Positions 1-62,291 of a stretch of DNA of 64,000 nucleotides are shown here, piece after piece (position 1 is the stretch's first letter; each line of letters opens with the position of its first letter). The stretch is from Candidatus Falkowbacteria bacterium (GTDB lineage Bacteria; Patescibacteriota; Patescibacteriia; UBA11705; JABHMO01): contig JABHMO010000043.1 in NCBI GenBank assembly GCA_018693855.1, forward strand, positions 72,154 to 136,153, given 5' to 3'. Both the position numbers and the translations under genes were made by a program. A model generated the notes under the pieces. That model was not told the DNA's origin. It worked only from the letters and a program-made list of their open reading frames with translations, and searched no databases.

Positions 1-1
1 G

Positions 2-1048
2 GAAATAGTGACAGAAGCACATCTAAGTACACCAAGTGAAGCAAAAATTTTCGGACAAGAGATTCAGTTAATAATGAAACATCTGGAAGTCTCACATGCA
101 AACATGGAAAAAGGAGAGCTTCGATGTGATGCAAATATTTCATTACGTCCGGTTGGTGATATCAATTTATACACAAAGACTGAAATAAAAAATATTAACT
201 CTTTTCGAGCATTAGAAAGAGCTCTTCAGTTTGAAATAGAAAGACAGACAGTGCTTTGGCATAATAATATGGCACCGAAACAGCAAGAGACTCGTGGTTG
301 GGATGAAGGCAAGCAGGAAACGTATTCACAAAGAGTAAAAGAAGAAGAACATGATTATAGATATTTTCCAGAACCAGATTTACCACCACTTGAGATAAGT
401 GATGAGCAAATTAAAGAGATAAAAAGTCTTCAACATGAACTACCTCAAGCAAAAAGACGTAGATTCATGGAAATGTACAGTTTCACTGGAGAAGAAGCCA
501 AGATTTTAACAGAAAATAAAAAATTATCATTCTATACTGAACAAATCATTTCAGAACTAAAAGACTGGTTAAATACAATTGCCAAAGAAGAAGGGACTGA
601 AGAAGAAATTTGGGAAAAGAATAAAAAGAAACTTGTTAAACTAGTTTCAAATTGGTTAATCAACAAATTCATCCCGATAATCACCGAAAAGAAAATTTCA
701 TTCAAAAATAACAAAGTAACAGCTGAAAATTTCGCAGAGTTCATAACACTTGTCTACACAAGTAAAATCAACAGCGCAGCTGCCCAAATAATTCTTGAAG
801 AGATGATCAAAACAGGAGCTGATCCGTCTCATGTAATGGACGATAAAGACCTAAGCCAAATGGACAGTTCAAGTGACTTAATCGATATTGTAAAAAAAGT
901 TATCGACAGCAATACAGACCAAGTTGAAGAGTATAAATCAGGTAAAGAACCTGTAATTAAATTCCTTGTTGGACAAGTCATGAAAGAATCAAAAGGGAAA
1001 GCTAACCCGCAAAAAGCAGAGGAACTATTAAAGCAAAATATAAAATAG
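2..1048 (+). CDS. gatB: Asp/Glu-tRNA(Asn/Gln) amidotransferase subunit B, C-terminal part (5' end lies outside the window)
   Basis: The translation has a GatB-typical core (…GELRCDANISLRP…) and a C-terminal GatB/YqeY-type domain. The reading frame is open to the window edge. Confidence 0.85.
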   Translation, partial: EIVTEAHLSTPSEAKIFGQEIQLIMKHLEVSHANMEKGELRCDANISLRPVGDINLYTKTEIKNINSFRALERALQFEIERQTVLWHNNMAPKQQETRGWDEGKQETYSQRVKEEEHDYRYFPEPDLPPLEISDEQIKEIKSLQHELPQAKRRRFMEMYSFTGEEAKILTENKKLSFYTEQIISELKDWLNTIAKEEGTEEEIWEKNKKKLVKLVSNWLINKFIPIITEKKISFKNNKVTAENFAEFITLVYTSKINSAAAQIILEEMIKTGADPSHVMDDKDLSQMDSSSDLIDIVKKVIDSNTDQVEEYKSGKEPVIKFLVGQVMKESKGKANPQKAEELLKQNIK

Positions 1049-1054
1049 AGTATC

Positions 1055-1088
1055 AAAAAACCGAGAATGGTCATTCTCGGTTTTTTAT
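1055..1088 (+). terminator. Rho-independent terminator after gatB, built from a REP-like palindrome
   Basis: An A-run is followed by the hairpin CCGAGAATGG/TCATTCTCGG and then TTTTTT. It is the same palindrome family as the hairpin at 4293-4316 and those flanking the RAYT gene. Confidence 0.7.
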
Positions 1089-1134
1089 CTTGCGCATAAA
1101 AATGCCTAATTTTAGTTAAAAATGCCCCCAAAAC

Positions 1135-1163
1135 TTGACAAATAATTTTTATTAATATATAAT
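1135..1163 (+). promoter_or_regulatory. Consensus sigma70-type promoter (TTGACA-17-TATAAT) driving a short non-coding transcript
   Basis: TTGACA sits at 1135-1140, a 17-nt spacer follows, and TATAAT sits at 1158-1163. No plausible CDS lies downstream before the terminator at about 1236-1270. Confidence 0.55.
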
Positions 1164-1167
1164 TTGA

Positions 1168-1272
1168 GTACAAATTCACAAAAATGTGTTATATTACATC
1201 GACGGCGTGGGATACGTTTCCACAATCACCACGCCCCCCGGACTGCCCTCTTAGGCGGTCCGGTTTTCTTTT
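1168..1272 (+). ncRNA. Candidate small RNA of about 100 nt, identity unknown
   Basis: It is bounded by the consensus promoter and an intrinsic terminator (CCGGACTGCC…GGCGGTCCGG followed by TTTTCTTTTT). The region is locally GC-rich and has nested stems (GGCGTGG…CCACGCC; GTGGGA…TTCCAC). Only spurious ORFs overlap it. Confidence 0.4.
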
Positions 1273-2174
1273 TATTCATTTTTCAATATTTTATTCACTT
1301 GATTATAATTATCTATCCAACTAATTGTTCTATCCCTTTTAAACCAAGTCATCTGTCTCTTTGCATATCGCCTATTATCTCTTTGATTAAGTTCAATAGC
1401 ATCTTCCATACTAATCTCATCTTGCAAGTATTTTACCACATTTTTGTATCCAATTCCACTTAGAGCAGGTGATTTAGAATCTATTCCATTATCAAGCAAG
1501 TTCTTCACTTCCTCAACTAAACCTTCATCAAACTGTTCCTTGGCTCGTTTATCAAGCTTTTCGCACAGTTTTTCACGTTCAGTTTTCATTCCAAATTGGA
1601 CAAATTCATACTCTGACTCCCCTTTTTCAAAGGTCAGAGGCTCCCTTGTGCTTGAACAAATTTGGTATGCACGAAGCACTCTCCGAGAGTTAGTTGACTC
1701 AATTTTGTGTTCAATCTCCGGATCGATCTTTTTTATTTCTGATAATAAATATTCAATCCCTTTTGTTTTGAGTAGTTTCTCAGCTTTTTGTCTTAATTTA
1801 GGATCATATCCCTTGCCCAGCTGATAATTATTAACCAAAGCTGAGAGATATAAACCTGTTCCTCCAACAATGACAGGCAATTGATCAGGGTGATCTTTAA
1901 TACACTTTTTACAAGCCTTTAGCCAGTCATCAAGCGTAAATTCCTTATCCGGAGCAACTATGTTAACAAGACACTCTTCTATCCCCTTCCAGTAGTATTT
2001 TCCATTTTCAAGCTCAACTGGGTCCTTATTAGTCCCAATAGCCATTTTCTGATAGATCTGCCGTGAATCAGCCACAATCAAAAAACCATTAAAATCTTTA
2101 GCTATTTTATAAGCAATTTCAGATTTCCCTGAACCTGTCGGCCCAAGTACAATTATGACTTTCTTTTTATCCAT
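1272..2174 (-). CDS. miaA: tRNA dimethylallyltransferase
   Basis: The protein has an N-terminal P-loop (GPTGSGKS), an ADSRQIYQ motif, and the length and architecture typical of MiaA. Confidence 0.9.
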   Translation of the reverse strand: MDKKKVIIVLGPTGSGKSEIAYKIAKDFNGFLIVADSRQIYQKMAIGTNKDPVELENGKYYWKGIEECLVNIVAPDKEFTLDDWLKACKKCIKDHPDQLPVIVGGTGLYLSALVNNYQLGKGYDPKLRQKAEKLLKTKGIEYLLSEIKKIDPEIEHKIESTNSRRVLRAYQICSSTREPLTFEKGESEYEFVQFGMKTEREKLCEKLDKRAKEQFDEGLVEEVKNLLDNGIDSKSPALSGIGYKNVVKYLQDEISMEDAIELNQRDNRRYAKRQMTWFKRDRTISWIDNYNQVNKILKNE

Positions 2175-3930: not shown

Positions 3931-4293
3931 ATGACATCTAACACTTCTTTTTCTATGAAAAAAACACTAACTTGGTTACCGAGAATTTTAACAATCATTT
4001 TCATCTGCTTCATCAGCATGTTTGCGCTAGATGCGTTTTCAGATCCAAACGGGTTTTGGTTAAATTTAGCAGGCTTTTTAATTCACTTAGTTCCAAGCTT
4101 TGCTTTAATTATCTGCCTAATTTTGGCATGGAAAAAACCGCTTATAGGCGGCATTATTTTTATATTTCTATCAGTTGTGTTCACTTTTGCATTCGACACT
4201 TATGAAGATGTAGTAACTTTGCTTATAATTTCATTCCCATTACTACTTGTAGGCATACTTTATCTTGTTGATTTTCACTTGCGTAAGAAATAA
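3931..4293 (+). CDS. Small integral membrane protein, hypothetical
   Basis: It encodes 120 aa with three or four hydrophobic helices and is followed directly by a terminator. Confidence 0.4.
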   Translation: MTSNTSFSMKKTLTWLPRILTIIFICFISMFALDAFSDPNGFWLNLAGFLIHLVPSFALIICLILAWKKPLIGGIIFIFLSVVFTFAFDTYEDVVTLLIISFPLLLVGILYLVDFHLRKK

Positions 4294-4323
4294 CCGAGAA
4301 TGCGCATTCTCGGTTATTTTTTA
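4293..4323. terminator. Bidirectional intrinsic terminator built from a REP-like palindrome
   Basis: The hairpin AACCGAGAATGCGCATTCTCGGTT is flanked by an A-run on one side and a T-run on the other. It lies between the convergent genes at 3931-4293 (+) and 4314-5588 (-). Confidence 0.7.
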
Positions 4324-10918: not shown

Positions 10919-10925
10919 AAAGAAA

Positions 10926-11088
10926 CGATGCTAATTTGCGAATTATGCGAATGCTGCGAACGCTTCGCCATGCTAATTTGCGAATTACGCGAATAGTTAA
11001 TATTCGTATCATTAGAGTAATTCGCAAATTAGCATCCCAGTACATTTTCGCATCATTCGCATAACATTCGCGGATTTGCATCGGTTTA
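10926..11088. repeat. Copy 1 of a roughly 160-bp imperfect palindromic intergenic element (MITE/REP-like)
   Basis: It contains GCTAATTTGCGAATTA(C/T)GCGAATA…TATTCGTA…TAATTCGCAAATTAGC. It fills the nfu-iscS spacer exactly and is near-identical to the copies at about 35929-36080, 36417-36535 and 46128-46292. Confidence 0.8.
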
Positions 11089-11313
11089 TATTTTTTCAAC
11101 ACCACTCACCTCTGGTATTTGTTTTTTAAGATAAGTTTCTATTCCTTGGTGAAGAGTAATTTCTGCCATGGGACAACCGTGGCATGCACCGGTTAATTTT
11201 ACCTTTACAATCCCCTCCTCCGTTACTTCAACAAATTCAACGTCTCCCCCATCTGCTTGTAGTGAAGGTCGAATTTCGTTTAGAACTTCTTGTATTTTCT
11301 TTTCGTCTATCAT
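11086..11313 (-). CDS. NifU-like C-terminal domain protein (Nfu-type Fe-S cluster carrier)
   Basis: It encodes 75 aa with a CxxC motif (GACHGCPMAEITL) characteristic of the Nfu/NifU C-terminal domain. Confidence 0.7.
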   Translation of the reverse strand: MIDEKKIQEVLNEIRPSLQADGGDVEFVEVTEEGIVKVKLTGACHGCPMAEITLHQGIETYLKKQIPEVSGVEKI

Positions 11314-11320
11314 AATTATA

Positions 11321-11362
11321 GTGAATCGAAGTAAATCGCAGTAAAGCGAAGTAAATCGAAGC
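11321..11362. repeat. Tandem array of 10-bp units (GTAAATCGAA-like) filling the iscU-nfu spacer
   Basis: The units are gtgaatcgaa, gtaaatcgca, gtaaagcgaa and gtaaatcgaa. The same unit family occurs at 40051-40110, 41891-41930 and 60821-60869. Confidence 0.75.
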
Positions 11363-11366
11363 TAGA

Positions 11367-11747
11367 TTATTTTTCTTTATTTTTATAATTAGTTATAGCG
11401 CTCTGTAATCCTTCTTCCGCTAGGATTGAACAGTGATATTTTACAGCGGGCACATCACCTCCTAAATGAGCGACTACATCGTCCTTTGTAATTGCTAACG
11501 CTTGATCAAAGGTTTTCCCTTTTGCAAGTTCAGTCAAAGCAGAGGAAGCTGCGATCGCAGCAGCACATCCAAGTGTTTCAAATTTAACATCTTTAATAAC
11601 TTCCTTATCTTTATCAACTTTAATATATATTTTCATGATGTCTCCACATTTAATATTTCCAACCTCACCAACTGCGTCAGCATCTTTAATAACACCTTGA
11701 TTTCGAGGTTTCTTAAAATGATCGAGTAATGTTTCACTATATTTCAT
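11367..11747 (-). CDS. iscU: Fe-S cluster assembly scaffold, IscU/NifU N-terminal domain
   Basis: It encodes 126 aa with three conserved Cys (…GNIKCGD…, LGCAAA…, …HCSILA…). Confidence 0.85.
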   Translation of the reverse strand: MKYSETLLDHFKKPRNQGVIKDADAVGEVGNIKCGDIMKIYIKVDKDKEVIKDVKFETLGCAAAIAASSALTELAKGKTFDQALAITKDDVVAHLGGDVPAVKYHCSILAEEGLQSAITNYKNKEK

Positions 11748-13799: not shown

Positions 13800-13886
13800 G
13801 TTGATACACGTAAATATAAATTGGTTAAACGACTTAGCAGACCTCTTATTGGTCTTCTATAGCCCTCTTTAGCCTTCTTAATAAGT

Positions 13887-14222: not shown

Positions 14223-14876
14223 TTATGGCAGTTTATCAATCATATTTGTAAATTCTGAATTAAGGGATGACCAAGGATAATTCTGCCAACTTTCAGCAAT
14301 GCCGTGTTTAGAAGGGTTTCTATGGATGTAATTAAGTTTGTTCATTAAATCAGATTTATTCCTTGCATATCTATCATGAAAAGATTTATGCCATTTGAAT
14401 TTAGGATATTCCATCAAAGAATGCTTATTTATAAAATCATTTTTAAGTCTAGATAGTCTATTCCATCTATTCATTTGTTTTTCATATTGATTAATTAAAG
14501 AAATATCAATAGAATCTTTATTATCCCGAGAATGAGAATCTTTATTATCCTGAGAATGCGAGTCTTTATTATCCCGAGAATGCGGATTCTCGGGTACTGA
14601 AAGTTGATTATGGGAGAGGATTCTATTGATATTTTGGGAAGAATTCTTTTTTATTGATTTCATGATATTTGAAATGGATTCATCATTTGATCTAATGAGC
14701 ATATGAAAATGTTCTAAATTTATAATAAATGCAAAAAGATCAAAGCCATAATAATCCTTTGATTCTTTTATCTCATCAATTAAGCATCTGCTTAAAATAG
14801 GATTCTCAAAATATTCAATATTTCGAAACGTGTTTGTCGTCGTCAAATAATATTTCCCTTTATAAAAATTCCTCAT
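14223..14876 (-). CDS. REP-associated tyrosine transposase (RAYT) / IS200-like Y1 transposase
   Basis: It has a HuH motif (LEHFHML), and a C-terminal region typical of the IS200/Transposase_17 fold (…DRYARNKSDLMNKLNYIHRNPSKHG…). REP-like palindromes sit at its 5' end and inside the ORF. The start is placed at ATG 14874-14876; the ORF-track GTG start lies within the palindrome. Confidence 0.65.
   Translation of the reverse strand: MRNFYKGKYYLTTTNTFRNIEYFENPILSRCLIDEIKESKDYYGFDLFAFIINLEHFHMLIRSNDESISNIMKSIKKNSSQNINRILSHNQLSVPENPHSRDNKDSHSQDNKDSHSRDNKDSIDISLINQYEKQMNRWNRLSRLKNDFINKHSLMEYPKFKWHKSFHDRYARNKSDLMNKLNYIHRNPSKHGIAESWQNYPWSSLNSEFTNMIDKLP
14523..14594. repeat. Three tandem 24-bp units derived from the REP palindrome, lying inside the RAYT coding sequence
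   Basis: The units are atcccgagaatgagaatctttatt, atcctgagaatgcgagtctttatt and atcccgagaatgcggattctcggg. They encode the repeat HSRDNKDS/HSQDNKDS. Confidence 0.8.
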
Positions 14877-14893
14877 ATCTTTATTAATCAGTA

Positions 14894-14915
14894 CCCGAGA
14901 ATCCGCATTCTCGGG
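14894..14915. repeat. REP-like palindrome CCCGAGAATCCGCATTCTCGGG at the 5' end of the RAYT gene
   Basis: It is a perfect 9-bp-arm palindrome of the same family as the hairpins at 1061-1080, 4293-4316 and 14573-14594. Confidence 0.8.
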
Positions 14916-14949
14916 CACTGATTTGATTTTAATTATTATTAATTATAAC

Positions 14950-14979: not shown

Positions 14980-14997
14980 TTTGAATAAATTGTGTCA

Positions 14998-17118
14998 TTA
15001 CCAACACTGAATGCCTGGGAACCAAATCTCCCCTTCTCCATTCCCGCCGGCACGGCGATCGAATGGCAAGTTGCACTCAATCGTTGCAACCGTATGGTCA
15101 TAGCATGACCATAATGACGGGTACAGACAAGCACAGTTGAAATCAATCCATGGCTGACCTCGCAAACAGATATCACGAAGCGGGCTGTTGACGGTCACGC
15201 TCGGTGAGCCTATGGCTTCGCCAAAACTGGCGTACCAAGCATATGCCTGCATATCTGCCGGGCAAGTGAACGTGCACGTAACAAGGTCGTCCATACTTGG
15301 ACAATTATCTTGTTCTTCTGGCGAATCAGGCTCCATTTCAGCTTCAGGCTCATCCTCGATCTGATCTTGATCAGGTTGTTGAGGTGTATTACAAACACCA
15401 TTCAGACAACCAAACTGACAAGGAATGATTTCGCGATGGCAATAGCCTTCGTATAGACAGTATCCTGAAAACGAGACCTGATTATTACCATCACAACTGT
15501 CAAACGCATAGCAATCTTGCTCGGTTCGACAGCTAAGACAATGAGATACACCCTGACAAGGATCTTGTTCAGGTTCGATCTCGTCTTCAAGCTCTTCTGG
15601 TTCAGGTTCTGGCTCCACCAAATCCTGATCAGTGAACGTTTCCTGATAATAACACCCTGCCAAACCAAGACAGGTCGCGCCGTCAGGACAAAGTTTCCCT
15701 TCATCCGTAAACGAGTTACAGTTATCATCAAGCCCATTACATGACTCTGTTGCACCGGGATGCATGAGAGGATCTGCGTCATCGCAGTCCCCTTTGTTCA
15801 CAGTATACCCATCATTATCCATATCCATCTCGTTCTCATCATAGCTACCGCCAGTGATGTAGTACGAGTTCAGGCAACGATGAGCCATCTCCATTGTGAT
15901 ATCAGGGTCAAACAGCCGAAAACTGCCTTCTAGCTCGTTCTGATTAGCATGATAGAGGTATTTATCAGCATACCCCATCTCGTTGTATGCTTGCTCAGTT
16001 GAGAATGCCCGCAATCGGCCATTGCCAGAGGCAACGAAAACCACGCCGCGCCCAAATCCGGAAATCGGATAGTTGGGTTTAACAAGGGTGCCGTCACGCA
16101 CGTACAAGGTATCCATCAAGTCACATCGCCAGAAATACTGGTCTTCAGCTTGCTGATCCGTTAAAACTTGCAATCGTTCATCGATTGTCCAGCTTCGGTA
16201 AGCGAATTCTGAAGAGAACTCATACAGAGCGCAGTGACTTGAGTCGTGACTGGCTTTTTCATACAGAAGGATTGTGCCGTCTTCCACTTGGAAGAGTTCA
16301 CGAACTGGTTGCCAATCAACGATGAAACCATCATCGTAACAACTCAGTTCAAGGTCACTGACCTCAATCACCATGTCACGTGGAAAATCATGCGCTTCGA
16401 AAACCTGATCGCTATCGATCAGATTTTTCTTGCCATCAATGAGCACGTATACATCAGACTCGTTGACCGAGCTGATCAAAGCTCCATCTGGATGCCAAGT
16501 CACAACTTGCTCTTCAACGAAGAGTGAAGCACAGTTGGACGCTGTACGCCATGAATTGACGAATGTATCCAAATCGTAGCGATTGAACTGTCCAGCTGTT
16601 CGTCCTGGATCGTGAACAATCACTTCACTGTCGGTCATTCCGATGACGACCATGAAGTGTCCCAGTTTAGCTGTATTCATTTTGATATGAACAGCCACCA
16701 TGACGGGGTTGTCTTTTTCGATCTCCTGCCGGAGTTTATCGAGGTGACAGGCGTTACGTTTGATAACGAAGCCTGTTTGCCAATGATTTTCCAGCAATTT
16801 TTTGAGTTGCCCCATATTGGTTAGGTTGCCGTCATAGTGCTCAGCACCGTAACTTGTTTGCGGGACAATATAGTTGTTGTTATACAGCCAATCGATAGCT
16901 GTTTTCAGATGCTCGACCGTAGGTGAGAAATCTTGGAGATAACTCGCCATGATTAGAGCAGCGGTTGGTCCGCAATTGGAATTAAAACTCCAGTCGCCCG
17001 GAGGCGACTGGGGTAAAAATTGGACTTCGTCCAAGAGGATCTGATTGTTGTTCTCGGCCAAGACCGAACCGGTGATGGACACAAGAATCAGAATGACTAG
17101 AATAGCTACCTTTTTCAT
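14998..17118 (-). CDS. Secreted protein with an N-terminal C39-like cysteine peptidase domain and a C-terminal Cys-rich region of putative metal-binding repeats
   Basis: It has a signal peptide and a Cys/His peptidase arrangement (NSNCGPTAAL…, …GHFMVV…). The C terminus has repeated DCDD…NP…CNG.DDNC-type motifs and acidic PEPEPE linkers. GC content is markedly higher than the genome, and an AGGAG Shine-Dalgarno lies before the ATG. Confidence 0.5.
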   Translation of the reverse strand: MKKVAILVILILVSITGSVLAENNNQILLDEVQFLPQSPPGDWSFNSNCGPTAALIMASYLQDFSPTVEHLKTAIDWLYNNNYIVPQTSYGAEHYDGNLTNMGQLKKLLENHWQTGFVIKRNACHLDKLRQEIEKDNPVMVAVHIKMNTAKLGHFMVVIGMTDSEVIVHDPGRTAGQFNRYDLDTFVNSWRTASNCASLFVEEQVVTWHPDGALISSVNESDVYVLIDGKKNLIDSDQVFEAHDFPRDMVIEVSDLELSCYDDGFIVDWQPVRELFQVEDGTILLYEKASHDSSHCALYEFSSEFAYRSWTIDERLQVLTDQQAEDQYFWRCDLMDTLYVRDGTLVKPNYPISGFGRGVVFVASGNGRLRAFSTEQAYNEMGYADKYLYHANQNELEGSFRLFDPDITMEMAHRCLNSYYITGGSYDENEMDMDNDGYTVNKGDCDDADPLMHPGATESCNGLDDNCNSFTDEGKLCPDGATCLGLAGCYYQETFTDQDLVEPEPEPEELEDEIEPEQDPCQGVSHCLSCRTEQDCYAFDSCDGNNQVSFSGYCLYEGYCHREIIPCQFGCLNGVCNTPQQPDQDQIEDEPEAEMEPDSPEEQDNCPSMDDLVTCTFTCPADMQAYAWYASFGEAIGSPSVTVNSPLRDICLRGQPWIDFNCACLYPSLWSCYDHTVATIECNLPFDRRAGGNGEGEIWFPGIQCW

Positions 17119-17147
17119 GATTTTTCTCCTGTTTGCGTATTGCTAGT

Positions 17148-17777
17148 TTAGAACGAGAAGTTCTGGATGAAGTCTTTGAAAACTTCTTGAGCTTGACCTT
17201 CGTCAACTCCATTCACATGGAGAGCGATGTCGTAGACAAACTCGCCTGATCGGATGAAGTATCTCGGATCACCAAGATAGACGGCGTTGTGAGATGTCGC
17301 TTGGACAGTCTCATTATCGGTCAAAAAACTCAGGTCAACGGTTTCAAAGCCGGTCACGCTATCAGGATAGTACTTCGCGAAGAAGTCATCCCAGCCCTCT
17401 GAGCTTTGAGTTACGTTAACATTGATCAGAGCGTAGTAATTGGTATACTTCTGTGAATTGATCTCACTCTTGCCACTGACTTCGATATAGTAGTCGTCAG
17501 GGGCAGAGCCACCTAGGACAACTTCTTTGTCAGTGTTTTTTACTAGTAAAGAGTAGATCAGCTCATCATTCTCACCATGACGTTGTGCCAACTCGACGAA
17601 CCAGCCGTCTGGGTAGTTGAACTCAAAATCATTTGCAGTGTAAGCAATCCAATCACCGGCTGTAGTAGGCTCGTTGTCTTGCTTGCCTTCTTCGTACCGA
17701 GTACACCCGGAGATGAAGAGAGCTGTAGCGATCACAACGGCTACGATCAAAAAGTTACGAAATTGAAATTTACGCAT
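17148..17777 (-). CDS. Hypothetical lipoprotein
   Basis: Its signal peptide ends in a lipobox (FISGC). The gene is GC-rich and an AAGGAG Shine-Dalgarno lies 9 nt upstream. The start was moved to the internal ATG. Confidence 0.5.
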   Translation of the reverse strand: MRKFQFRNFLIVAVVIATALFISGCTRYEEGKQDNEPTTAGDWIAYTANDFEFNYPDGWFVELAQRHGENDELIYSLLVKNTDKEVVLGGSAPDDYYIEVSGKSEINSQKYTNYYALINVNVTQSSEGWDDFFAKYYPDSVTGFETVDLSFLTDNETVQATSHNAVYLGDPRYFIRSGEFVYDIALHVNGVDEGQAQEVFKDFIQNFSF

Positions 17778-18042
17778 ATCGATTTTCTCCTTTTCGAGGT
17801 TTGTTAGAATGGGTCCTCGTTTTACCCTTAACATACTAACGTTAGCATGCTAAAACTGATTGTCAATGGACAAGAAGGCCACAGCCTTCGTTTCCTATTT
17901 CGATTAAACCACACAAAGATTATTTTCCCCACGAAAATGTTATCCACACTCGTCAGAATATAAAAAACAGCGATTTTACTAAGGGAAAATCGCGTTTTTC
18001 TTGTCGAGGTAGGTCGTCAAGATTTTAGAGTTAAATTATTAC

Positions 18043-18080
18043 AAACAAAAAATCTCGAGTTTTTATCGAGATTTTTTATT
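18043..18080. terminator. Bidirectional hairpin terminator (AAAAATCTCGAG…TCGAGATTTTTT)
   Basis: An 11-bp stem is flanked by A- and T-runs, downstream of the minus-strand gene at 18089-18769. Confidence 0.55.
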
Positions 18081-18088
18081 CTATGAAA

Positions 18089-18769
18089 CTATTTGAAATA
18101 TTTATCATCCTTAACCAATTCAACCGCTTCATCATACATTTTTTGCAAATCATGATGTTCTTGCCAATTTATGAGCATAGCTTCTCTTAAATTTTCATGA
18201 ATTTTATATCCAAAATCCTTATCGTTTGTTATTTCTGTAAACGGACCATTCAAAATAACGGTTGAAGCTTCCTTTATAAACTCGTACTGCTCTCGAGTAA
18301 CTTGTTTCCAGATCTTTTCACCATAATATGCGAAGAATTGAAAATGTAACAGTTCATGAATGAAGGTCATCAAGTTACGATCAAGTGAATCATCGACGAC
18401 AAGCCAGACATAACCATTATCAAAACTATACGGGCATCTTTTTATTGTTGTAATAAAACAAGTAAAATCATCACGATATATTTTATGACCAGTTAAATTT
18501 TCCATTATCTGAAACAATTTGTCTTTACTGTCATCAAAACCTTGCTGAAGCGAAGACACAACTTTTTCTATATCAAAATCCTCATACAATTTTTCTAGAA
18601 TCGGTTTTAGATAGGCATAAGCTTCTGCCTCTGTTTTCCCAATAATAAACGGCCAATGCTTTTCGTCTATCCTTTGCTTCCAATCAACGCCATGAGAACT
18701 GTTATTACAAGCATGCCACCAGTTCCAAGTGTCTTTTTTGATATCTAGTTTCATTTCTATTGTTGGCAT
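18089..18769 (-). CDS. Hypothetical protein with an HExxH motif (possible zinc metallopeptidase fold)
   Basis: It encodes 226 aa with a FIHELLHFQF motif and no signal peptide. Composition is AT-rich and host-like. Confidence 0.4.
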   Translation of the reverse strand: MPTIEMKLDIKKDTWNWWHACNNSSHGVDWKQRIDEKHWPFIIGKTEAEAYAYLKPILEKLYEDFDIEKVVSSLQQGFDDSKDKLFQIMENLTGHKIYRDDFTCFITTIKRCPYSFDNGYVWLVVDDSLDRNLMTFIHELLHFQFFAYYGEKIWKQVTREQYEFIKEASTVILNGPFTEITNDKDFGYKIHENLREAMLINWQEHHDLQKMYDEAVELVKDDKYFK

Positions 18770-18894
18770 ATATAGAATATTATTGATAATAAATCCATAT
18801 ATATATTATATCATTGCCCTATAAGTAATAAAACAATGCCTTAACGTAAAACTTTTCACAATTTGACAAAATGCGTCAAAAATGCCAAACATCA

Positions 18895-18923
18895 TTGACA
18901 AATATTGATAAATGTACTATATT
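18895..18923 (+). promoter_or_regulatory. Sigma70-type promoter (TTGACA-17-TATATT) for the lipoprotein gene at 18975
   Basis: TTGACA sits at 18895-18900 and TATATT at 18918-18923. A GGAGGA Shine-Dalgarno lies 8 nt before the ATG. Confidence 0.55.
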
Positions 18924-18974
18924 GAAAATGAATAGTAGCTGTAACAAAAACCCCAAGCCTGTGGAGGAAAGATA

Positions 18975-19526
18975 ATGAAACGCTACACTTCGTTCTTTTA
19001 TATCATGCTTTTCGTATTTCTCCTGTCGCCGGCCTGCACCGGTGGCGGAGCGCCCGATCAGGGCGACAACGACGTCTACGACACAGATGAAGGTAACGTC
19101 GGCGACATCGATCAGATCGATGTGACTGACAACACCGAAATCAACGACGAAACGCCGAGCGACACGGCTGAGGAGCCGGTCGAAGAGGTTGAAGAGCCGG
19201 ACACGCAAATCGATCCACGTACTCCATTCCTGCCACTCGAGGGTGAATGGGAATGCGTAGAAGGTGATGGTTTTTACCAAGGAGATATCGTCAACCTACG
19301 TATTGCTGAATGGGACGCTGAACGGGAAGCCGTCAAGGTCATTGGCATCCAGCCATGTCCACGACTAGGCTTTTCGCAAAAAATCGCAGAAGATATTACG
19401 TTCTATGGTGCAATGGGCACTAAGTTCGAAGAAATTCTTTGCGACAACGGCACATTCAATCAAGGAATGAACATACTAACGTTCGATGCTGACGGAATCT
19501 TCTTCCAATACGAAAAACTGGAGTAG
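18975..19526 (+). CDS. Hypothetical acidic lipoprotein
   Basis: Its signal peptide ends in a lipobox (LSPAC), followed by a D/E-rich linker. The gene is GC-rich with a strong Shine-Dalgarno. A hairpin terminator lies at 19531-19562. Confidence 0.5.
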   Translation: MKRYTSFFYIMLFVFLLSPACTGGGAPDQGDNDVYDTDEGNVGDIDQIDVTDNTEINDETPSDTAEEPVEEVEEPDTQIDPRTPFLPLEGEWECVEGDGFYQGDIVNLRIAEWDAEREAVKVIGIQPCPRLGFSQKIAEDITFYGAMGTKFEEILCDNGTFNQGMNILTFDADGIFFQYEKLE

Positions 19527-19659: not shown

Positions 19660-22600
19660 CTAGAAAAAATCCTGTGTACTTTGATCAGCAGCTGACTCTG
19701 GTCGAACATAAATATAAGAGCTGTACCACTGTCCTGTAGATTCATCAGATGATCTCATAAGACACTCACCATCGTTGCCATTTAGCCCGTCACCTAACTG
19801 GTAAACTTCTACAACATTTTGATTACACCAATTCCAATTGTCAGATACTGTAACGCGTGGTTTATATCGACACCACAGATTACCTTCTCGTAATACATGA
19901 CAATTTTCATTAACAACTTCATCGTCCTCGTCAACTGAACCACAAACAGGTAAACTCTCAGGTGAAGCACAAGTATAAGAATGAGAATAGTTAAAGTAAT
20001 CATCCGTACATGATTCAAAGGTATCACCCCAATTATCATAAGTATCAGTAGAGCAAGTGGCTGGTCTTCCAGTAAAATCAATTATACCATCACAATCAGA
20101 AGTTGAAGAGCAAGAATATCCAGGGATCATCTGACCATTATCTAGACACAGTCCAAGTTTTTCATGTTCTTGCCTTTGACATCTAGGTTTATGGTTTTTC
20201 AACTTACCAGTTGGTCCAGTTGGATCACTCTTATCTCCCCAATCAATTTTGACTTTTTTAATTGGCATTGCGTTTCTATCAGCCCATGCATAGAACTTCA
20301 AACTGACATCTGCTTGCGCACCAATTATTTCAACTGGCCCAGAACTGCTAGCACCGTCACCTGAAACAACTGTAATTGTGTTTGGAATAGCAGTATTAAT
20401 ATCATTATCATTAACAGTCTCAGCTACTCCCATTACAATCGGAGAATACACTTTATCGCCTAAACCTGCAGAAGAGTTAAAACTTTTCGTTAAATTATCC
20501 CAAGGCAAAGATGAAGTTGTATCTTCTACGTATTTCCATGCATACAAACCAACATTATCTCCAGCAGAAGTGCTATCATAGCTATGATCAAATACTGAAC
20601 TAGATTGAGCAAATAATCTTTTCAACTGCCAGTCCGAAACATTAGAGCTAGATTCCTTACTGATATCAAAACACATTGTTCCGCCGGCATAAGCAGCTTT
20701 AGAACCTAAGTTTAATCCTTGATCTACCACACCTTGACACTCTTTACGATTGGATTGAAGAGAAGATTCTCTAGAATTATCCTCACCAACCGCCAAATAA
20801 TTATACATGAAGAAACTACTAGTATCTTGAAGTGAGCTTGAATCATCAGGCAGAGCACCTAGAAAGCCACAAGCTTCAGGATATTCCAATGATTCTTCAA
20901 TAGACATTAGTGAAGCTTTTTCAGCGTCTAAATTACTTCCAATTAAATTATCCATTGAACCTCCGCTGAATGTATTACAGTTCGCCAAACCAACAGAACC
21001 TGTATCGCCACCACTTCTCACTTTATAATAATGATCTGAATAAATAGGACTAGAACTTGGAATTACCACGTACTTTGAGCAAACAGGAGCATCAGCTTCA
21101 TACAGCTCAATAGATGGTGTTCCTTGTCTTGTGATTAAATGCTTTGCCGCAATCATATTTGGTTCTTGATACTCTTTTGTATGTACTTGTCTATCAGAGT
21201 TATACTCTACTTGTATCTTTGCGTAGCAGTATTTAGTACCTAGACCACTTGGTTTCTTACAAGACATCTCCTCATCACAATCAGAATCACTATTACACAG
21301 ATTATCTGAACTTAAAGAATTTGTTGCATATCTAGTTCCTGAATCATTAATACAACTTAGATATTCACAGTCATCATCTGTACTTTCACAATTAGCATCG
21401 CCAGTATACAGTGCTCCACTAAACTTAAAATCTTCTTTTCCATCTCCATCATTATCAATATCGTCATCACACTGTTTTTTAGTTGTGTAAACACAATCCT
21501 CACAAAAGATATGATCACCTGAAGATGTATCTATACTATAAGAATGAACTCCGTTCGCTGTATAGTCTCTATTCAGGGCACTGCTTGCAAAATTCGGACC
21601 ATTATCAAAATACCATGAAAGTTTTGAATTATCAGCATTAGCATCTGTCACGCCAGTATACTCAGGAATGCATTCATGATGAGTAACAATAGTATCAGCA
21701 ATCTCTCGTTTATCACCAACACCTGGAACAAACGGACCTCCTTTATACAACTTCCATGATTTTGCATCAAAAAACGTTGTCAGACCTGGACGATATCCTT
21801 CTGGACAAACTGGTCCATTATAATCAGGACCAAAAGACCCTGTCCACGGATCTTCAATCGCAGCATCTCCATTGTTTTTAGCTCCACACTGTCTGAGGAG
21901 AGCTTTTGCAATAGTTAGTGAATCAAAAGCTTTCTGATTATAACTTGTTGGATCTGATGCTAAATTAGTTGTCCCAGCAATTAAACTATTAAAATAATCT
22001 TTATACTCTGGCCAATAATCATTACTAGGAACATTCGGCATATTATAATGAAGAGCGCCTTCATAACCATCTGAATAAGAATACATTCTATAAACATCCT
22101 CAAAAGAGGCTCCATGGAAGAACTCCCACCAAGGAGTACCATTAGTCCACTTCACATACGCAGAATTCCAATCAGATTGTTTATATTGCGTGTTTGGTTT
22201 CCAGTCACCGACCTTAGTATTCATCATATTTCCTTCGTTCTGTGTAATCGTAAATGACTGATCACCATCTTTACTATAAAAATTCCGAGGTGCAGCCAAC
22301 TCATCGTCATAATCCAGACTTAAATTGGAATTTAAACCATCATAATCACCACAACTTAAACTTCCGTCAGTTCTAGCAATGTAAGTATGACGTTTTTCCC
22401 ATCGCTCTGGTTCCACACAAAATTTAGGATCATCAGTACCTGCATATTCATCATCAATATAGAAACCAGCTTCTTCATGATTATCACGCAAATTGTTCAA
22501 ACCTTGCATGTTGTTTGTTGGATACCAGATTAAACATGGATGTTCTGATGTGTCATAAAGTACAGTTGATTCATCGTATTGCAAACAATATCCACTCAAA

Positions 22601-30044: not shown

Positions 30045-30135
30045 AAGCTAAATAAAACAAAAAAATAATTTTGTTCTTTAAACAAATGATTTCACTAAAT
30101 TTATTATACCATAAATTCACTCTTCTAACTAAAAA

Positions 30136-30150
30136 AATAGTGGATAATAT
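30136..30150. promoter_or_regulatory. Candidate operator palindrome GTGGATAaTATCCAC upstream of the TSP3/giant-protein operon
   Basis: It has perfect 7-bp arms around a single central nucleotide, about 90 bp upstream of the 30044 start. Confidence 0.3.
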
Positions 30151-30249
30151 CCACATTCTTTTCCACTAAAATTAGTTAAATATTTTTCGTTTGATTAATC
30201 GCGAAAAATTGTACTTAAAACAACGTTAGTGATAAAAGTTTACTTAACG

Positions 30250-30620
30250 AAATTGGATTCCTGCCTACGCAGGAATGACGATTTGAAGGTACGTTATTCC
30301 AATACACCAAGGGGTCTGGGGGGCGACTGTCTAAGCGTCATTAATCAACGCACAAAAAGTCGCTAAATAGAACATAGTGAGTTTTAGCTCCCCAGCAGTT
30401 TTCTTGCCTTGCCGAAGCTTATGTAATAGCGAAGGCGGGTGGTTACTTTTGGCGCCAAAAGCAACTCGACCGAGAGGGCGAAAAATCAACGCAGCAAACA
30501 ATATTCAATTTTCGACATATTTTCACCGAATCCACAAATTTTACCTGGTGTATTATAAAGATCCCTCCAGCCCATCCTACGCTAATAGCTTCGGAGGGCA
30601 GGCAAGGTCGGGATGACAAA
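30250..30620. ncRNA. Candidate structured RNA of unknown class in a 600-bp gene-free, GC-elevated spacer
   Basis: It has long-range complementarity (CCTTGCCGAAGCTTAT…ATAGCG at 30407-30437 with CGCTAATAGCTTCGGAGGGCAGGCAAGG at 30572-30603), an internal palindrome CTTTTGGCGCCAAAAG, and GGG/CCC-rich stems. No convincing ORF is present. The strand is undetermined. Confidence 0.3.
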
Positions 30621-30640
30621 AGATTAAGAGAACAAACACA

Positions 30641-44238: not shown

Positions 44239-45435
44239 CTAAGGGCACGCCGCAAACTCACAATCCGGCCCAGTCCTCCCAACAGAACTACCATCCGGAC
44301 AGATCTTAGCTTCCTCGGTACAAGCAATTACATTATCAATCGGTTCATCTGGCGCAACAGGTGCTTCAGCAAAGTCCCCTTCAATAAAGTTAAAACTATC
44401 AACCATCATCTTAAACATTGCAGGATAAAAAGCCTCTACTTTCTGACCAATTCCATAGTTGATAACGTAGACCATGTCTTGCTTTGCAATGAAAACAGTA
44501 AATCCATCCGGTGATTCAATAACTGGGATATCGTAATGATTGTTGTAAAATTTCAACTGAGTTCTAGTTGCTCGTGGATTCAACCGTAGATACCAATCAA
44601 CAATAGATTCTTCAGAATTCTTGTTCGCAATGAATACATTAACAAACTCATTATTACTTGAAGTAAACAGTACATCTTCAGTATCAAGAGGATCAAGTGA
44701 ATCAGCTAACCAACTTTTTGGATATAGAAGTTTATAACTGTACATTGTATTCTCATACTCTGCAACAAAATCACCTTCTTCTAACTTTACCATACTTTGA
44801 GTTGGACTGTAAAAATTCATTAACTCAGAACCATCAGCATAACCATCACCATCTGAATCAGCAATTGTTGCGTTTGTGTTAATTAAAAGTTCTTCCTGAT
44901 CAGTCAGACCATCATTATCACTATCAACTGATGCCATAACATTTACATTGAATCGATTTGCATAACTATAATCAAACTCTTTCGCAGGTACTAAATTATC
45001 AGGTAAAACATCATCAACTGGATCATCCGCTGGCTCCTCTGTATCTAATTCATCAGGTTGTGGTTCATCAGCATCATCTTGATCAACGACTGGATCAACT
45101 GTCTGAGGTTCGAAAACAACTTGATTTTGATTATCTTCACTAGAAGGTAAATATGTATAGACAAGTAATCCAATTGAAGCTAAAACTAAAATTGCTAGAA
45201 TTACCATGATAAGAATAACACCCAGTTTACTCTTCTTATGTTTAGGTGCGCCGTTAGAAGGTTTAGAAGCAGTTGCAGTCCCCTTTGATCCTTTTGTCGC
45301 AGAAACTGTTTTGTCCCCTAAATAATACTCCATGGGCATAGTATGAACTTGCTCATCTTGTGGAGATTTTTCTTGTTCTTCTTTAAGCGGTTTATTTACT
45401 TTATTGTCTAATTTTGGTTGTTCATCGTCAAACAT
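44239..45435 (-). CDS. Single-pass membrane protein with TSP3-like Ca-binding repeats and a C-terminal Cys-containing region
   Basis: It has a TM helix (GVILIMVILAILVLASIGLL), an acidic linker, and DSDNDGLTDQEE / DSDGDGYADGSE repeats. The start was moved to ATG 45433-45435 because the ORF-track N terminus is encoded by the 52-bp repeat element. Confidence 0.55.
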   Translation of the reverse strand: MFDDEQPKLDNKVNKPLKEEQEKSPQDEQVHTMPMEYYLGDKTVSATKGSKGTATASKPSNGAPKHKKSKLGVILIMVILAILVLASIGLLVYTYLPSSEDNQNQVVFEPQTVDPVVDQDDADEPQPDELDTEEPADDPVDDVLPDNLVPAKEFDYSYANRFNVNVMASVDSDNDGLTDQEELLINTNATIADSDGDGYADGSELMNFYSPTQSMVKLEEGDFVAEYENTMYSYKLLYPKSWLADSLDPLDTEDVLFTSSNNEFVNVFIANKNSEESIVDWYLRLNPRATRTQLKFYNNHYDIPVIESPDGFTVFIAKQDMVYVINYGIGQKVEAFYPAMFKMMVDSFNFIEGDFAEAPVAPDEPIDNVIACTEEAKICPDGSSVGRTGPDCEFAACP

Positions 45436-45522
45436 AGGAAAAGGGGCCAGCCCGCAATGTCTACGCATAGCGTTGCTGGCGGGGCTAAACGAGGCTATAC
45501 GAGGCTATAAAAGGCTTTCGGA
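45436..45522. repeat. Second copy of the 52-bp GC-rich core plus GAGGCTATA direct repeats, immediately upstream of the start codon
   Basis: The sequence GGGGCCAGCCCGCAATGTCTACGCATAGCGTTGCTGGCGGGGCTAAACGAGGCTATACGAGGCTATAAAAGGC is near-identical to 33140-33192. Confidence 0.75.
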
Positions 45523-60136: not shown

Positions 60137-60664
60137 TTAGCCAAAATCACGATCACGTTCATCTAATCTTTTTTTCCGAAAAGAGGTGTGCATCAGACTA
60201 CTACCACTTGGCCACTTTTCAGGTGTTCTTTCAAGCTCATAGTTTAGCTCCAGATACCTAACAGACCGTGGAACTCCAGCGATAATTCGTCTAAAATACA
60301 GCGCCAATTCAGAACCTGCAATCAACTTGAACCCAACACTTGTCATAGAACCATACAACTTTGTTCGGAAAAAGTACCGTGCAAGAAATGTTTCTTCATA
60401 CAAACTGCCAAAAAAGGCAAGCCTCAATTCCTTCACATCCTCCATCCATGACGTCCATTCATGAGGATTACTAAGGAAAAAGAGATAATCAGGATCACTC
60501 TTCTGTACAAGTTTTTTATATCTCAATAAAAGGTCATATCCTCTTTTCTTTTCGCTTTCAGGGAGTTTTTCCCACAGACGAACGAGATCCATCAAGCTGA
60601 GATCCAACCTAAACCGTAAACGTAAATTTTGCAACATTTCTTGAGCAGTTTTTGGTTCTGACAT
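60137..60664 (-). CDS. Hypothetical protein (175 aa)
   Basis: It has host-like composition and is basic. No recognisable motif was seen. Confidence 0.4.
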   Translation of the reverse strand: MSEPKTAQEMLQNLRLRFRLDLSLMDLVRLWEKLPESEKKRGYDLLLRYKKLVQKSDPDYLFFLSNPHEWTSWMEDVKELRLAFFGSLYEETFLARYFFRTKLYGSMTSVGFKLIAGSELALYFRRIIAGVPRSVRYLELNYELERTPEKWPSGSSLMHTSFRKKRLDERDRDFG

Positions 60665-60869: not shown

Positions 60870-62291
60870 ATGACTCCAAATTTCAAATCAAAACCAATAG
60901 AAGTAGATACAAAGGTCAATCTTTTGGACCAGAACGATAATAGACGACCAAAAGGTAAGAAAATTTTTAAAGTTAGTAAATTCATTATATATCTACTGGC
61001 TGTTATGATTGTGGCGTTTTTTGTATTCTCTTTTCAAGTTTTATTCACTGATAATAGCATTTCAAAAATCTTTGCTGGAAAAACAGGGTTTTTCGCGCAA
61101 CTAACAAGCTTGGCAGGAAACAGTTCTCCCCTATCCGGTGAAGCAGAAGACCGAATAAATATTTTACTACTTGGAATGGGTGGAGCTGGACATGATGGTC
61201 CATATCTAACAGACACAATAATGTTAGCCAGCATAAAACCATCAACGAAAAAAGTTTCAATGGTTAGTATTCCTCGTGACCTACTTGTTGAGATTCCTGG
61301 TTATGGTTATTGGAAGATTAATAACGCTAACGCTTTTCATGAACAGAAAAACGCTGGCAATGGCGGAGATCTGACAAAGGAAGTTGTTTCAAAAACTTTT
61401 GACATCCCAATTCATTATTATGTTAGAATAGATTTTGCTGGTTTTGAAAAAATCATTGACGAAATTGATGGAGTAAAAATAAATGTTGATAACAGTTTTA
61501 CTGATTACCAATACCCAACAAGTGATCACAAATATCAAGTTGTTTCATTTGAAACAGGAAATCAAACAATGGATGGTGAGACTGCTCTGAAATACTCTCG
61601 TAGTCGACATGGAAACAATGGCGAAGGATCTGATTTTGCAAGAAGTCAACGACAACAAAAAGTTCTGCAAGCGTTCAAACAAAGATTACTATCATACGAC
61701 TTTTTATTAAATCCAACAAAAATTAAAAAATTATCAAGAACATTATCTGACCATATTCGCACAGACCTTGAACTTTGGGAGACAATTAAATTAGCTCAAT
61801 TAGTCAAAGAAGTTGATACTGAAAATATTATTACAGAAGTGCTTGATGATAGTCCGGATGGATATCTTTATGCAAACATTGTAAATGAAGCCTACGTACT
61901 ATTACCAAAAGGAGACTCATTTTCTTACATCAATCATTTAATTAAGAATATTTTCAATCAAAACGATGAACAAGTCATTGCCGAAATAGAAGAAACTCAA
62001 GTCACAGTTGAAATCCGAAATGGAACAACGACTCCGGGACTCGCGTCTATCAATTCACAAGATTTGAAGTTCAAAGGATTCAAAATTTCAAAGATCGGAA
62101 ATGCACCTGTTCAAGATTACGAAAAAACACTTATTTACAAACTTTCTAATACTGTTTCTGAAAAAGAGACTGTATTAAAAGAAAAATATAATACAGAAAT
62201 ACTAGAAATAGCTATTCCTGATTGGGTAAAAGATCAAGCCGCTCCAGATTTAGATTACTTTGTAATTCTGGGTACGGATTTGAGTAAGTAA
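60870..62291 (+). CDS. LytR-CpsA-Psr (LCP) family cell-envelope phosphotransferase
   Basis: It has an N-terminal TM anchor and the LCP core (…LLLGMGGAGHDGPYLTDTIMLASI…SIPRDL…). A C-terminal LytR_C-like domain is present. Confidence 0.8.
   Translation: MTPNFKSKPIEVDTKVNLLDQNDNRRPKGKKIFKVSKFIIYLLAVMIVAFFVFSFQVLFTDNSISKIFAGKTGFFAQLTSLAGNSSPLSGEAEDRINILLLGMGGAGHDGPYLTDTIMLASIKPSTKKVSMVSIPRDLLVEIPGYGYWKINNANAFHEQKNAGNGGDLTKEVVSKTFDIPIHYYVRIDFAGFEKIIDEIDGVKINVDNSFTDYQYPTSDHKYQVVSFETGNQTMDGETALKYSRSRHGNNGEGSDFARSQRQQKVLQAFKQRLLSYDFLLNPTKIKKLSRTLSDHIRTDLELWETIKLAQLVKEVDTENIITEVLDDSPDGYLYANIVNEAYVLLPKGDSFSYINHLIKNIFNQNDEQVIAEIEETQVTVEIRNGTTTPGLASINSQDLKFKGFKISKIGNAPVQDYEKTLIYKLSNTVSEKETVLKEKYNTEILEIAIPDWVKDQAAPDLDYFVILGTDLSK

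What the first reader, a model, noticed from the sequence alone, without database searches (positions are those of the whole stretch)
1135..1272. Consensus-promoter-driven candidate small RNA between gatB and miaA
A perfect TTGACA-17-TATAAT promoter is followed by about 100 nt of unusually GC-rich sequence, with nested stems and a clean intrinsic terminator, before any gene. No credible ORF exists. The strongest promoter match in the window drives a non-coding stretch, which suggests an abundant sRNA such as a 6S-like, SRP-like or regulatory RNA. I could not match it to a known family by eye.
Basis: seen in the sequence. Interest (0 to 1): 0.5.

Follow-up and report, generated by a model that had tools for sequence, protein, structure and literature searches.

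The report
Orphan small RNA gene candidate
Between gatB and miaA of an uncultured Falkowbacteria (CPR) bacterium, a perfect promoter and a strong terminator bracket about 100 nt with no gene, so a small RNA is probably made, but it matches no known RNA family and is missing from the closest relatives.

Summary
TTGACA-17-TATAAT (1135-1163) is the only 12/12 promoter match with a 17-nt spacer in the 64 kb. Downstream lie a 34-nt AU-rich stretch, a bulged 10-bp hairpin (1204-1235), a C-run and the strongest intrinsic terminator scanned (1238-1273), which ends on the stop codon of convergent miaA. No credible ORF, tRNA or Rfam family fits, and 6S-like and SRP-like readings are not supported.

I found no homologue with the window, related loci, or metagenome, genome, viral, phage and plasmid searches. 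The collection searches were weak, so absence elsewhere is not shown.

In the closest relative (GatB 91%, MiaA 81%), the gatB terminator, spacer and promoter are orthologous. There the promoter drives an 82-aa protein gene. A 72% relative also has a promoter plus an 89-aa gene between gatB and miaA. The window state therefore looks derived: a conserved strong promoter now drives a lineage-specific 103-nt two-hairpin unit.

My best reading is a young, orphan, strongly expressed small RNA. Its action may be base-pairing, including antisense pairing to a long miaA 3' UTR. The main rival is a functionless relic whose terminator shields miaA. There is no expression or covariation evidence. It is a new member of a known kind, of modest interest.

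The parts
1..1048 (+). 3' part of gatB (runs in from the left edge of the window; stop codon TAG at 1046-1048)
   Evidence: ORF. The full-length 510-aa product on L001 carries PF02934 and PF02637 and is named GatB by NCBI.
1055..1086 (.). Bidirectional intrinsic terminator of gatB: A-run 1055-1060, stem CCGAGAAT/ATTCTCGG (1061-1080, loop GGTC), T-run 1081-1086. It is the first U-tailed terminator that miaA transcription on the minus strand would meet.
   Evidence: Read from the sequence. It belongs to a repeated hairpin family (D12/D20). It is orthologous to CCCGAGAAACTGCTTTCTCGGG in L137.
1135..1140 (+). -35 hexamer TTGACA
   Evidence: It aligns with the TTGACA of the closest relative L137.
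1158..1163 (+). -10 hexamer TATAAT, 17-nt spacer; predicted transcription start near A1170
   Evidence: The start site is inferred from the usual distance of about 7 nt after the -10 hexamer and is not measured.
1170..1203 (+). AU-rich 5' segment of the predicted RNA, with no stable structure
   Evidence: -2.2 kcal/mol, z = 0.07.
1204..1235 (+). Hairpin 1: GGCGUGG-GAU / AUC-A-CCACGCC, 10 bp with one bulged A and an 11-nt loop ACGUUUCCACA
   Evidence: -14.7 kcal/mol, z = -2.56, with 2 of 200 shuffles as good.
1234..1239 (+). Run of six C, spanning the end of hairpin 1, a 2-nt linker and the start of the terminator stem
   Evidence: Read from the sequence.
1238..1273 (+). Intrinsic terminator: 10-bp stem (8 G-C pairs), loop CUCUUA, U-tract UUUUCUUUUU whose last 2 nt overlap the miaA stop codon
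   Evidence: top of the list; z = -5.0. On the minus strand the hairpin is followed by GGGGGGCG rather than a U-tract.
1272..2174 (-). miaA (tRNA dimethylallyltransferase), convergent with the RNA unit
   Evidence: PF01715, named MiaA by NCBI for Candidatus Falkowbacteria.

Best explanation
This is an independent, lineage-specific small RNA gene in a Candidatus Falkowbacteria genome.

A consensus sigma-70-type promoter (1135-1163) starts transcription near 1170. A very strong unidirectional intrinsic terminator stops it at 1268-1273. The product is an RNA of about 100 nt with three parts: a 34-nt unstructured AU-rich 5' tail, a bulged GC-rich hairpin, and a C-rich linker leading into a terminator hairpin whose loop exposes CCCUCUUA.

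What is shown:
- the promoter and terminator anatomy;
- the lack of an ORF;
- the orthology of the promoter region with the closest relative, where it drives an 82-aa protein gene.

What is inferred:
- After the split from that relative, the small protein gene and a neighbouring 370-aa gene were lost or replaced. The retained strong promoter now drives the two-hairpin unit, so this is a young small RNA that took over an existing promoter.
- It most likely acts by base pairing through its unstructured 5' tail or its exposed loops.
- One concrete target follows from the layout. miaA has no U-tailed terminator before the bidirectional gatB terminator at 1055-1086. A miaA 3' UTR reaching that terminator would therefore be fully complementary to this RNA.
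For: - Promoter: 12/12 consensus with the optimal 17-nt spacer, one of two 12/12 matches in 64 kb against 0.13 expected.
- Near-consensus promoters in this window sit in front of real genes. The 11/12 site at 13771 precedes rpmA, and the one at 18895 precedes ORF 18975..19526.
- The stretch from the gatB stop to the -10 hexamer aligns with the closest relative L137 at z = 5.6, with 0 of 300 shuffles as good. The transcribed part does not align (z = 1.0). The hexamers have therefore been kept while the spacer diverged.
- In L137 this promoter drives a gene with a Shine-Dalgarno sequence and its own terminator.
- The terminator is the strongest one scanned and works only on the + strand.
- Hairpin 1 is more stable than shuffles. 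The 63-nt core is 67% GC in a 36% GC window.
- There is no ORF, tRNA or tmRNA.
Against: - There is no expression data.
- No homologue was found anywhere, so there is no covariation support for either stem.
- All six contigs of the same organism whose DNA was retrieved are identical in this region apart from contig-end errors, so there is no population-level test either.
- Duplex prediction against 42 translation-initiation regions in the window gave nothing above shuffled controls.
- Most genes here lack Shine-Dalgarno sequences. That weakens the idea that the C-rich motifs act on ribosome-binding sites.
- A promoter and a terminator left behind by a deletion would look much the same.
Confidence: 0.42

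Rival explanations
1. It is a functionless relic. Loss of the small protein gene and the 370-aa gene left the old strong promoter facing miaA. The strong terminator is kept, or was recruited, only to stop antisense transcription into miaA. The short RNA is a by-product with no function of its own.
For: The promoter is orthologous to one that drives an 82-aa gene in the closest relative. A 72% relative also has a promoter plus an 89-aa gene in the gatB-miaA interval. The gatB-miaA interval varies in gene content among relatives. The U-tract ends exactly on the miaA stop codon. No homologue and no target signal were found.
Against: A relic does not explain hairpin 1, a second GC-rich structure (z = -2.56) in a 36% GC genome. 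The transcribed part and the terminator resemble nothing in the relative's gene or terminator, so this is not a simple deletion junction. An orphan promoter that does harm would more easily be lost by mutation than be kept at a perfect 12/12.
Confidence: 0.3
2. It is a 3' structure of miaA. The two hairpins act on the minus strand as the end or stabiliser of the miaA mRNA, and the + strand promoter is incidental.
For: The minus strand folds as well as the plus strand (-39.8 kcal/mol, z = -3.84). The hairpins begin right after the miaA stop codon.
Against: On the minus strand the hairpins are followed by GGGGGGCG and GUCGAUG, not by a U-tract, and an A-run precedes the first one. This is the polarity of a + strand terminator. 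The perfect, orthologous promoter aimed at the hairpins is left unexplained.
Confidence: 0.1
3. It is a short-leader mRNA for a small protein: the 46-aa ORF that starts at ATG 1184.
For: Many genes in this window have TATAAT only 7-25 nt before the ATG and no Shine-Dalgarno sequence. An ATG 14 nt after the predicted start site is therefore not absurd.
Against: The ORF runs through the strongest terminator in the region, and its stop codon (1322-1324) lies about 50 nt beyond the U-tract, inside the antisense of miaA. No gene was called there in any of the seven contig places listed.
Confidence: 0.03
4. It is a divergent housekeeping or known RNA (6S, SRP, tmRNA fragment, riboswitch leader) that the models miss.
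For: CPR genomes often carry divergent RNAs (own knowledge). The promoter is strong.
Against: No Rfam match was found at E<=10 on a 121-nt query. The best is DUF3800-I at 15.6 bits against a gathering score of 44.2, aligned only over the terminator. ARAGORN finds nothing. No downstream gene lies in the same orientation, so it is not a leader. It is absent from the closest relatives, which a housekeeping RNA at a fixed locus would not be.
Confidence: 0.03

Closest known systems
OxyS-type origin: a small RNA that replaced a protein gene while keeping its regulatory region (Krieger et al., bioRxiv 10.1101/2021.10.18.464853, read)
   Same: In relatives, a protein-coding gene sits under the orthologous promoter. 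Here a short non-coding unit occupies that place. The paper reports that most enterobacterial small RNAs arose recently and that protein genes can be their source. That fits an orphan RNA with no homologues.
   Different: OxyS can be traced to a 3' fragment of the peroxidase mRNA. Here the transcribed part shows no detectable similarity to the relative's 82-aa gene or its terminator. Function and expression are unknown.
Terminator-ended base-pairing small RNAs of low-GC bacteria with C-rich motifs, such as RsaE/RoxS (RF01820); comparison from own knowledge
   Same: The size is similar (about 100 nt). It has its own promoter and a Rho-independent terminator. It has C-rich stretches (CCCCCC at 1234-1239; CCCUCU in the terminator loop) in an AT-rich genome.
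   Different: No Rfam match to RsaE or any other family. Most genes in this window lack G-rich Shine-Dalgarno sequences for such motifs to bind. No target signal was found. It is not a member.
Cis-antisense RNAs from convergent transcription units that overlap the 3' UTR of a neighbouring gene
   Same: The RNA is convergent with miaA. miaA has no U-tailed terminator before 1055-1086, so a long miaA 3' UTR would be fully complementary to it.
   Different: The extent of the miaA transcript is not known. The terminator stops the RNA before it enters the miaA coding region.
DUF3800-I RNA (RF02969), the best Rfam partial match
   Same: The overall layout of a small hairpin plus a terminator hairpin and a U-tail aligns.
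   Different: It scores 15.6 bits against a gathering score of 44.2, E = 2.5. The central helices of the model are deleted in the alignment. It is not a member.

Membership tests
6S RNA (RF00013) | Match to the covariance model. From own knowledge, a rod of about 180 nt with a large central bubble. | tested here: not met
   No hit at the gathering score or at E<=10. The unit is about 103 nt and forms two separate hairpins.
Bacterial small SRP RNA (RF00169) | Match to the covariance model. From own knowledge, a helix 8 with a GNRA-type tetraloop and conserved internal loops. | tested here: not met
   No hit at E<=10. The loops are ACGUUUCCACA and CUCUUA.
tRNA / tmRNA | Cloverleaf or tRNA-like domain detectable by ARAGORN | tested here: not met
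   ARAGORN finds no gene in the whole window.
Riboswitch or attenuator leader | A regulated gene downstream on the same strand | tested here: not met
   The next gene is convergent miaA, and the U-tract ends on its stop codon. No aptamer family matches.
RsaE/RoxS (RF01820) | Match to the covariance model | tested here: not met
   No hit at E<=10.
RsaE/RoxS (RF01820) | C-rich motifs that pair with Shine-Dalgarno regions of targets | tested here: inconclusive
   C-rich stretches are present. Most genes lack Shine-Dalgarno sequences, and duplex energies do not beat shuffles. Only 42 genes could be tested.
Independent small RNA gene (generic) | Own promoter | tested here: met
   The promoter is 12/12 consensus with a 17-nt spacer. 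It is orthologous to a gene-driving promoter in L137. Activity was not measured.
Independent small RNA gene (generic) | Own Rho-independent terminator on the same strand, and no ORF | tested here: met
Independent small RNA gene (generic) | Detected transcript | not testable with these tools
   No RNA-seq data are available here.
Independent small RNA gene (generic) | Conservation or covariation of the structure in relatives | tested here: not met
   The covariance model R1 finds only the same organism's contigs. The closest relatives carry other genes at this locus. The collection scans were limited.

The most novel reading that the evidence does not exclude
A small RNA was born very recently in a CPR bacterium by taking over the conserved strong promoter of a lost small-protein gene. 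It acts as a decoy: its terminator loop (GCCCUCUUAG) mimics the 10-nt-periodic UAGCCCUCUU/UAGCCUUCUU repeats found in the 5' leaders of rpmA and several other genes in this genome. In that way it would titrate whatever factor reads those leader repeats.
Probability: 0.04. Interest if true: 0.65.

Novelty: new member of a known kind. Interest (0 to 1): 0.3.

Why it matters
To my knowledge almost nothing is known about regulatory RNAs in Patescibacteria/CPR, which have tiny genomes and few classical regulators. If it is real, this would be a strongly expressed, species-specific small RNA whose origin can be read from the comparison with its closest relative: the same promoter, with a protein gene there and an RNA here. 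That would be a clean natural example of small RNA birth by promoter take-over. As it stands it is only a well-formed prediction without expression, conservation or target evidence. Orphan promoter-terminator units of this kind are common in bacterial genomes.

Tried and rejected
- **Rfam.** I searched at the gathering score on the whole window and at E<=10 on 900-nt and 121-nt stretches. Only chance-level hits appeared.
- **ARAGORN.** It found nothing.
- **blastn and covariance model R1.** I ran them against the window, the same-organism contigs and syntenic loci of relatives with MiaA 81%, 72% and 66% and GatB 91%, 74% and 69%. Only self matches appeared.
- **Metagenome pattern scan.** The pattern GGCGTGG-N(10-26)-CCACGCCCCCCGG was badly chosen. 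Absence from metagenomes is therefore not shown.
- **Genome contigs pattern scan.** I used a fixed loop with R/Y-coded stems. It gave zero hits, not even self, so this genome is not among the species representatives searched.
- **Viral contigs, phages and plasmids.** Two exact-pattern scans of viral contigs found nothing. In phage records only the AT-rich promoter part matched phage promoters, which is trivial. Plasmids gave only chance-level matches.
- **Variant in contig L005.** Its four differences looked like a natural variant. All six mismatches of that contig lie within about 40 nt of its two ends, so they are assembly-end errors.
- **Remnants of the relatives' genes.** I looked for traces of the 82-aa, 89-aa, 370-aa and 324-aa genes in 1049-1300 by tblastn. 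The only hit touching that stretch is a chance-level one (E 2.8) inside miaA.
- **Similarity to the L137 leader.** ATACGTTT..CCACAA in hairpin 1 resembles ATACGTTTAGCCCACAA in the L137 leader, but the alignment is not significant.
- **Target prediction.** Duplex folding against 42 start regions gave nothing better than shuffles.
- **Resemblance to the leader repeat.** GCCCTCTT in the terminator loop also occurs in the rpmA leader repeat. By my own estimate from base composition, this 8-mer is expected about 0.8 times by chance in the window on both strands and is seen twice. It is a lead only.

Full report
**Organism and flanking genes.** The window comes from an uncultured Candidatus Falkowbacteria (Patescibacteria/CPR) genome. 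The 300-aa product of 1272..2174(-) is identical to an NCBI MiaA of that taxon. The ORF that ends at 1048 is the C-terminal part of a 510-aa GatB. Six contigs from other metagenomes whose DNA could be retrieved carry the same region. Five are identical or differ by a single base outside this region. The sixth (L005) differs at six positions, all at its two contig ends, which are assembly errors.

**What is there.**
- gatB ends at 1048 and has its own bidirectional terminator: A-run, CCGAGAAT-GGTC-ATTCTCGG, T-run, at 1055-1086.
- After a 48-nt spacer come TTGACA (1135-1140), 17 nt and TATAAT (1158-1163).
- This is the best promoter match in 1-20 kb. It is one of only two 12/12 matches in the 64 kb on both strands. 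The other is at 60736(-) with a 16-nt spacer. Shuffled windows give 0.13 on average.
- The 11/12 matches in the first 20 kb sit in front of real genes. One example is 13771, which lies about 85 nt upstream of rpmA. Consensus matches in this genome are therefore probably working promoters.
- The predicted start is near A1170. This is inferred, not measured.
- The transcribed stretch has four parts:
  - a 34-nt AU-rich segment with no stable fold (z = 0.07);
  - hairpin 1 at 1204-1235 (7 bp, a bulged A, 3 bp, an 11-nt loop; -14.7 kcal/mol, z = -2.56);
  - a run of six C;
  - a terminator at 1238-1263 with 8 G-C pairs out of 10, followed by UUUUCUUUUU (-20.4 kcal/mol, z = -5.0).
- The U-tract overlaps the stop codon of convergent miaA by two bases.
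- The 63-nt core is 67% GC in a 36% GC window, among the 20 highest of all 60-nt windows.

**What it is not.**
- No ORF is credible. The 46-aa and 99-aa ORFs read through the terminator into the antisense of miaA, and no assembly's gene caller called them.
- ARAGORN finds no tRNA or tmRNA.
- Rfam gives nothing at the gathering score in the whole window. At E<=10 it gives only chance-level hits. The best on the right strand is DUF3800-I at 15.6 bits against a gathering score of 44.2, aligned over the terminator only.
- 6S and SRP are therefore not supported.
- It cannot be a leader, because no gene follows on the same strand.

**Relatives.**
- The MiaA and GatB searches show that the nearest known relative has MiaA 81% and GatB 91% identity. 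Nothing lies between that and 100%.
- In that relative (L137/L138), the gatB terminator, the spacer and a TTGACA/TATAAT promoter align with window 1049-1164 (z = 5.6; 0 of 300 shuffles as good). Spacer plus promoter alone give z = 2.5.
- Downstream of the -10 hexamer the similarity disappears (z = 1.0).
- There the promoter drives an 82-aa protein gene with a Shine-Dalgarno sequence and its own terminator. A convergent 370-aa gene then forms an operon with miaA.
- The 72% relative (L009/L010) also has a TTGACA promoter driving an 89-aa gene in the gatB-miaA interval.
- The 66% relative has other small genes there.
- More distant named genomes have unrelated content after gatB: Falkowbacteria RIFOXYC2_FULL_48_21 (GatB 69%) and a Kuenenbacteria MAG (GatB 74%).
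- Neither blastn nor a covariance model built from the two-hairpin structure finds the RNA in any of these loci or elsewhere in the window.
- tblastn finds no remnant of the relatives' genes in the intergenic stretch.
- The parsimonious reading is that promoter plus small protein gene is ancestral. The window carries a derived state in which the conserved promoter drives a new 103-nt unit of unknown origin.

**Wider searches.**
Only the self contig matched the model.
- The genome-collection pattern scan found nothing, not even the source genome.
- Viral contigs, phages and plasmids gave nothing relevant.
- Absence elsewhere is therefore suggested but not proven.

**Mechanism.**
- The anatomy predicts a discrete, strongly transcribed RNA of about 100 nt.
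- I rate it most likely a young base-pairing small RNA (confidence about 0.4).
- One concrete interaction follows from the layout. On the minus strand the two hairpins are not followed by U-tracts. miaA transcripts may therefore run on to the bidirectional terminator at 1055-1086, which would give a 3' UTR fully complementary to the RNA.
- A trans role could not be supported. Duplex energies against 42 start regions in the window do not beat shuffled controls. Most genes here have no Shine-Dalgarno sequence, which weakens an RsaE/RoxS-like action of the C-rich motifs on ribosome-binding sites.
- The main rival (about 0.3) is a relic. After gene loss, the terminator would be kept only to shield miaA from a strong convergent promoter.
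  - Against this, hairpin 1 is an extra GC-rich structure.
  - The unit is not a simple deletion junction.
  - A harmful orphan promoter would be expected to decay rather than stay at 12/12.
- The origin scenario has a published precedent. OxyS replaced a peroxidase gene while staying under the same regulator, and most enterobacterial small RNAs are reported to be young (10.1101/2021.10.18.464853).

**Verdict.** This is a real and well-formed promoter-terminator unit. It is very probably transcribed, it is not a member of any described RNA family, and it is not conserved in the closest relatives. It is a new member of a known kind (an orphan small RNA candidate) and of modest interest. The decisive evidence would be metatranscriptome coverage and a structure-aware search of all CPR genomes, neither of which could be obtained here.

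Noticed in passing
window 13858-13880 (+), 57776-57812 (-), 59930-59975 (-), 45470-45515 (-), 59235-59275 (-), 33175-33215 (-), 37320-37350 (+), 40125-40150 (+): A pyrimidine-rich 10-nt unit, TAGCC(C/T)(C/T)CNN, is repeated two to four times in tandem with a 10-nt period. Examples are TAGCCCTCTT TAGCCTTCTT before rpmA and TAGCCTCGTA TAGCCTCGTT TAGCCCCGCC before ORF 44239..45468. Most copies lie in the sense strand just upstream of start codons, in a genome whose genes mostly lack Shine-Dalgarno sequences. I cannot assign this repeat to any class I know.
   Followed up: partly
window 11300-11371, 40034-40115, 41892-41928, 60810-60876: Other intergenic tandem arrays also have a 10-nt period, built from GTAAATCGAA-like units in both orientations (families D1 and D5). 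One lies directly upstream of ORF 60870..62291.
   Followed up: no
window 10924-11088, 35928-36075, 36414-36485, 46126-46290: A repeated intergenic block of 70-160 nt is rich in TTCGCA/TGCGAA motifs, with four copies and up to 96% identity between 35928 and 46126 (families D2, D7, D15). The copies lie upstream of minus-strand genes.
   Followed up: no
window 33141-33181 and 45443-45483: An exact 41-nt GC-rich repeat, GGGGCCAGCCCGCAATGTCTACGCATAGCGTTGCTGGCGGG, lies in two 5' regions. In the second copy the ATG inside the repeat is listed as the start of ORF 44239..45468, so that start may be miscalled. No Rfam match at the gathering score, and none at E<=1 for the first copy.
   Followed up: partly
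window 30045-30640: A gene-free stretch of about 600 nt contains several GC-rich hairpins, for example GCCTGCCCTCCGAAGCTATTAGCGTAGGATGGGCTGGAGGG. Its only Rfam hit is weak: FtrB at 27.6 bits against a gathering score of 66. It could be a larger non-coding RNA.
   Followed up: partly
window 1051-1086, 4283-4319, 14885-14914; tandem 24-nt units at 14512-14587: The gatB terminator hairpin CCGAGAATG..CATTCTCGG recurs at two other places in the window. A related CCCGAGAATG unit forms a 24-nt tandem repeat inside ORF 14223..14918 (families D12, D13, D20). The same hairpin follows gatB in the closest relative.
   Followed up: no
window 14992-19379: This block of genes has clearly higher GC, with peaks of 0.6-0.72 against 0.36 overall. 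It may be horizontally acquired.
   Followed up: no
window 19660-29190 (-) and 46288-54780 (-): Two giant ORFs of 3176 and 2830 aa.
   Followed up: no
window 60736-60708 (-): The second 12/12 promoter match, TTGACA-16-TATAAT, lies upstream of ORF 60137..60664. That ORF encodes 175 aa, has a GGGAGG Shine-Dalgarno sequence and matches no Pfam family.
   Followed up: partly
L137 3900-3985 (gatB leader of the closest relative); L139 4370-4700: GC-rich hairpins are also common in untranslated regions around gatB in related Falkowbacteria. One example is CCCTGCTTGCCGGCAGGCAGG in the gatB leader of L137. GC-rich stems in non-coding DNA are therefore not unique to the candidate.
   Followed up: no
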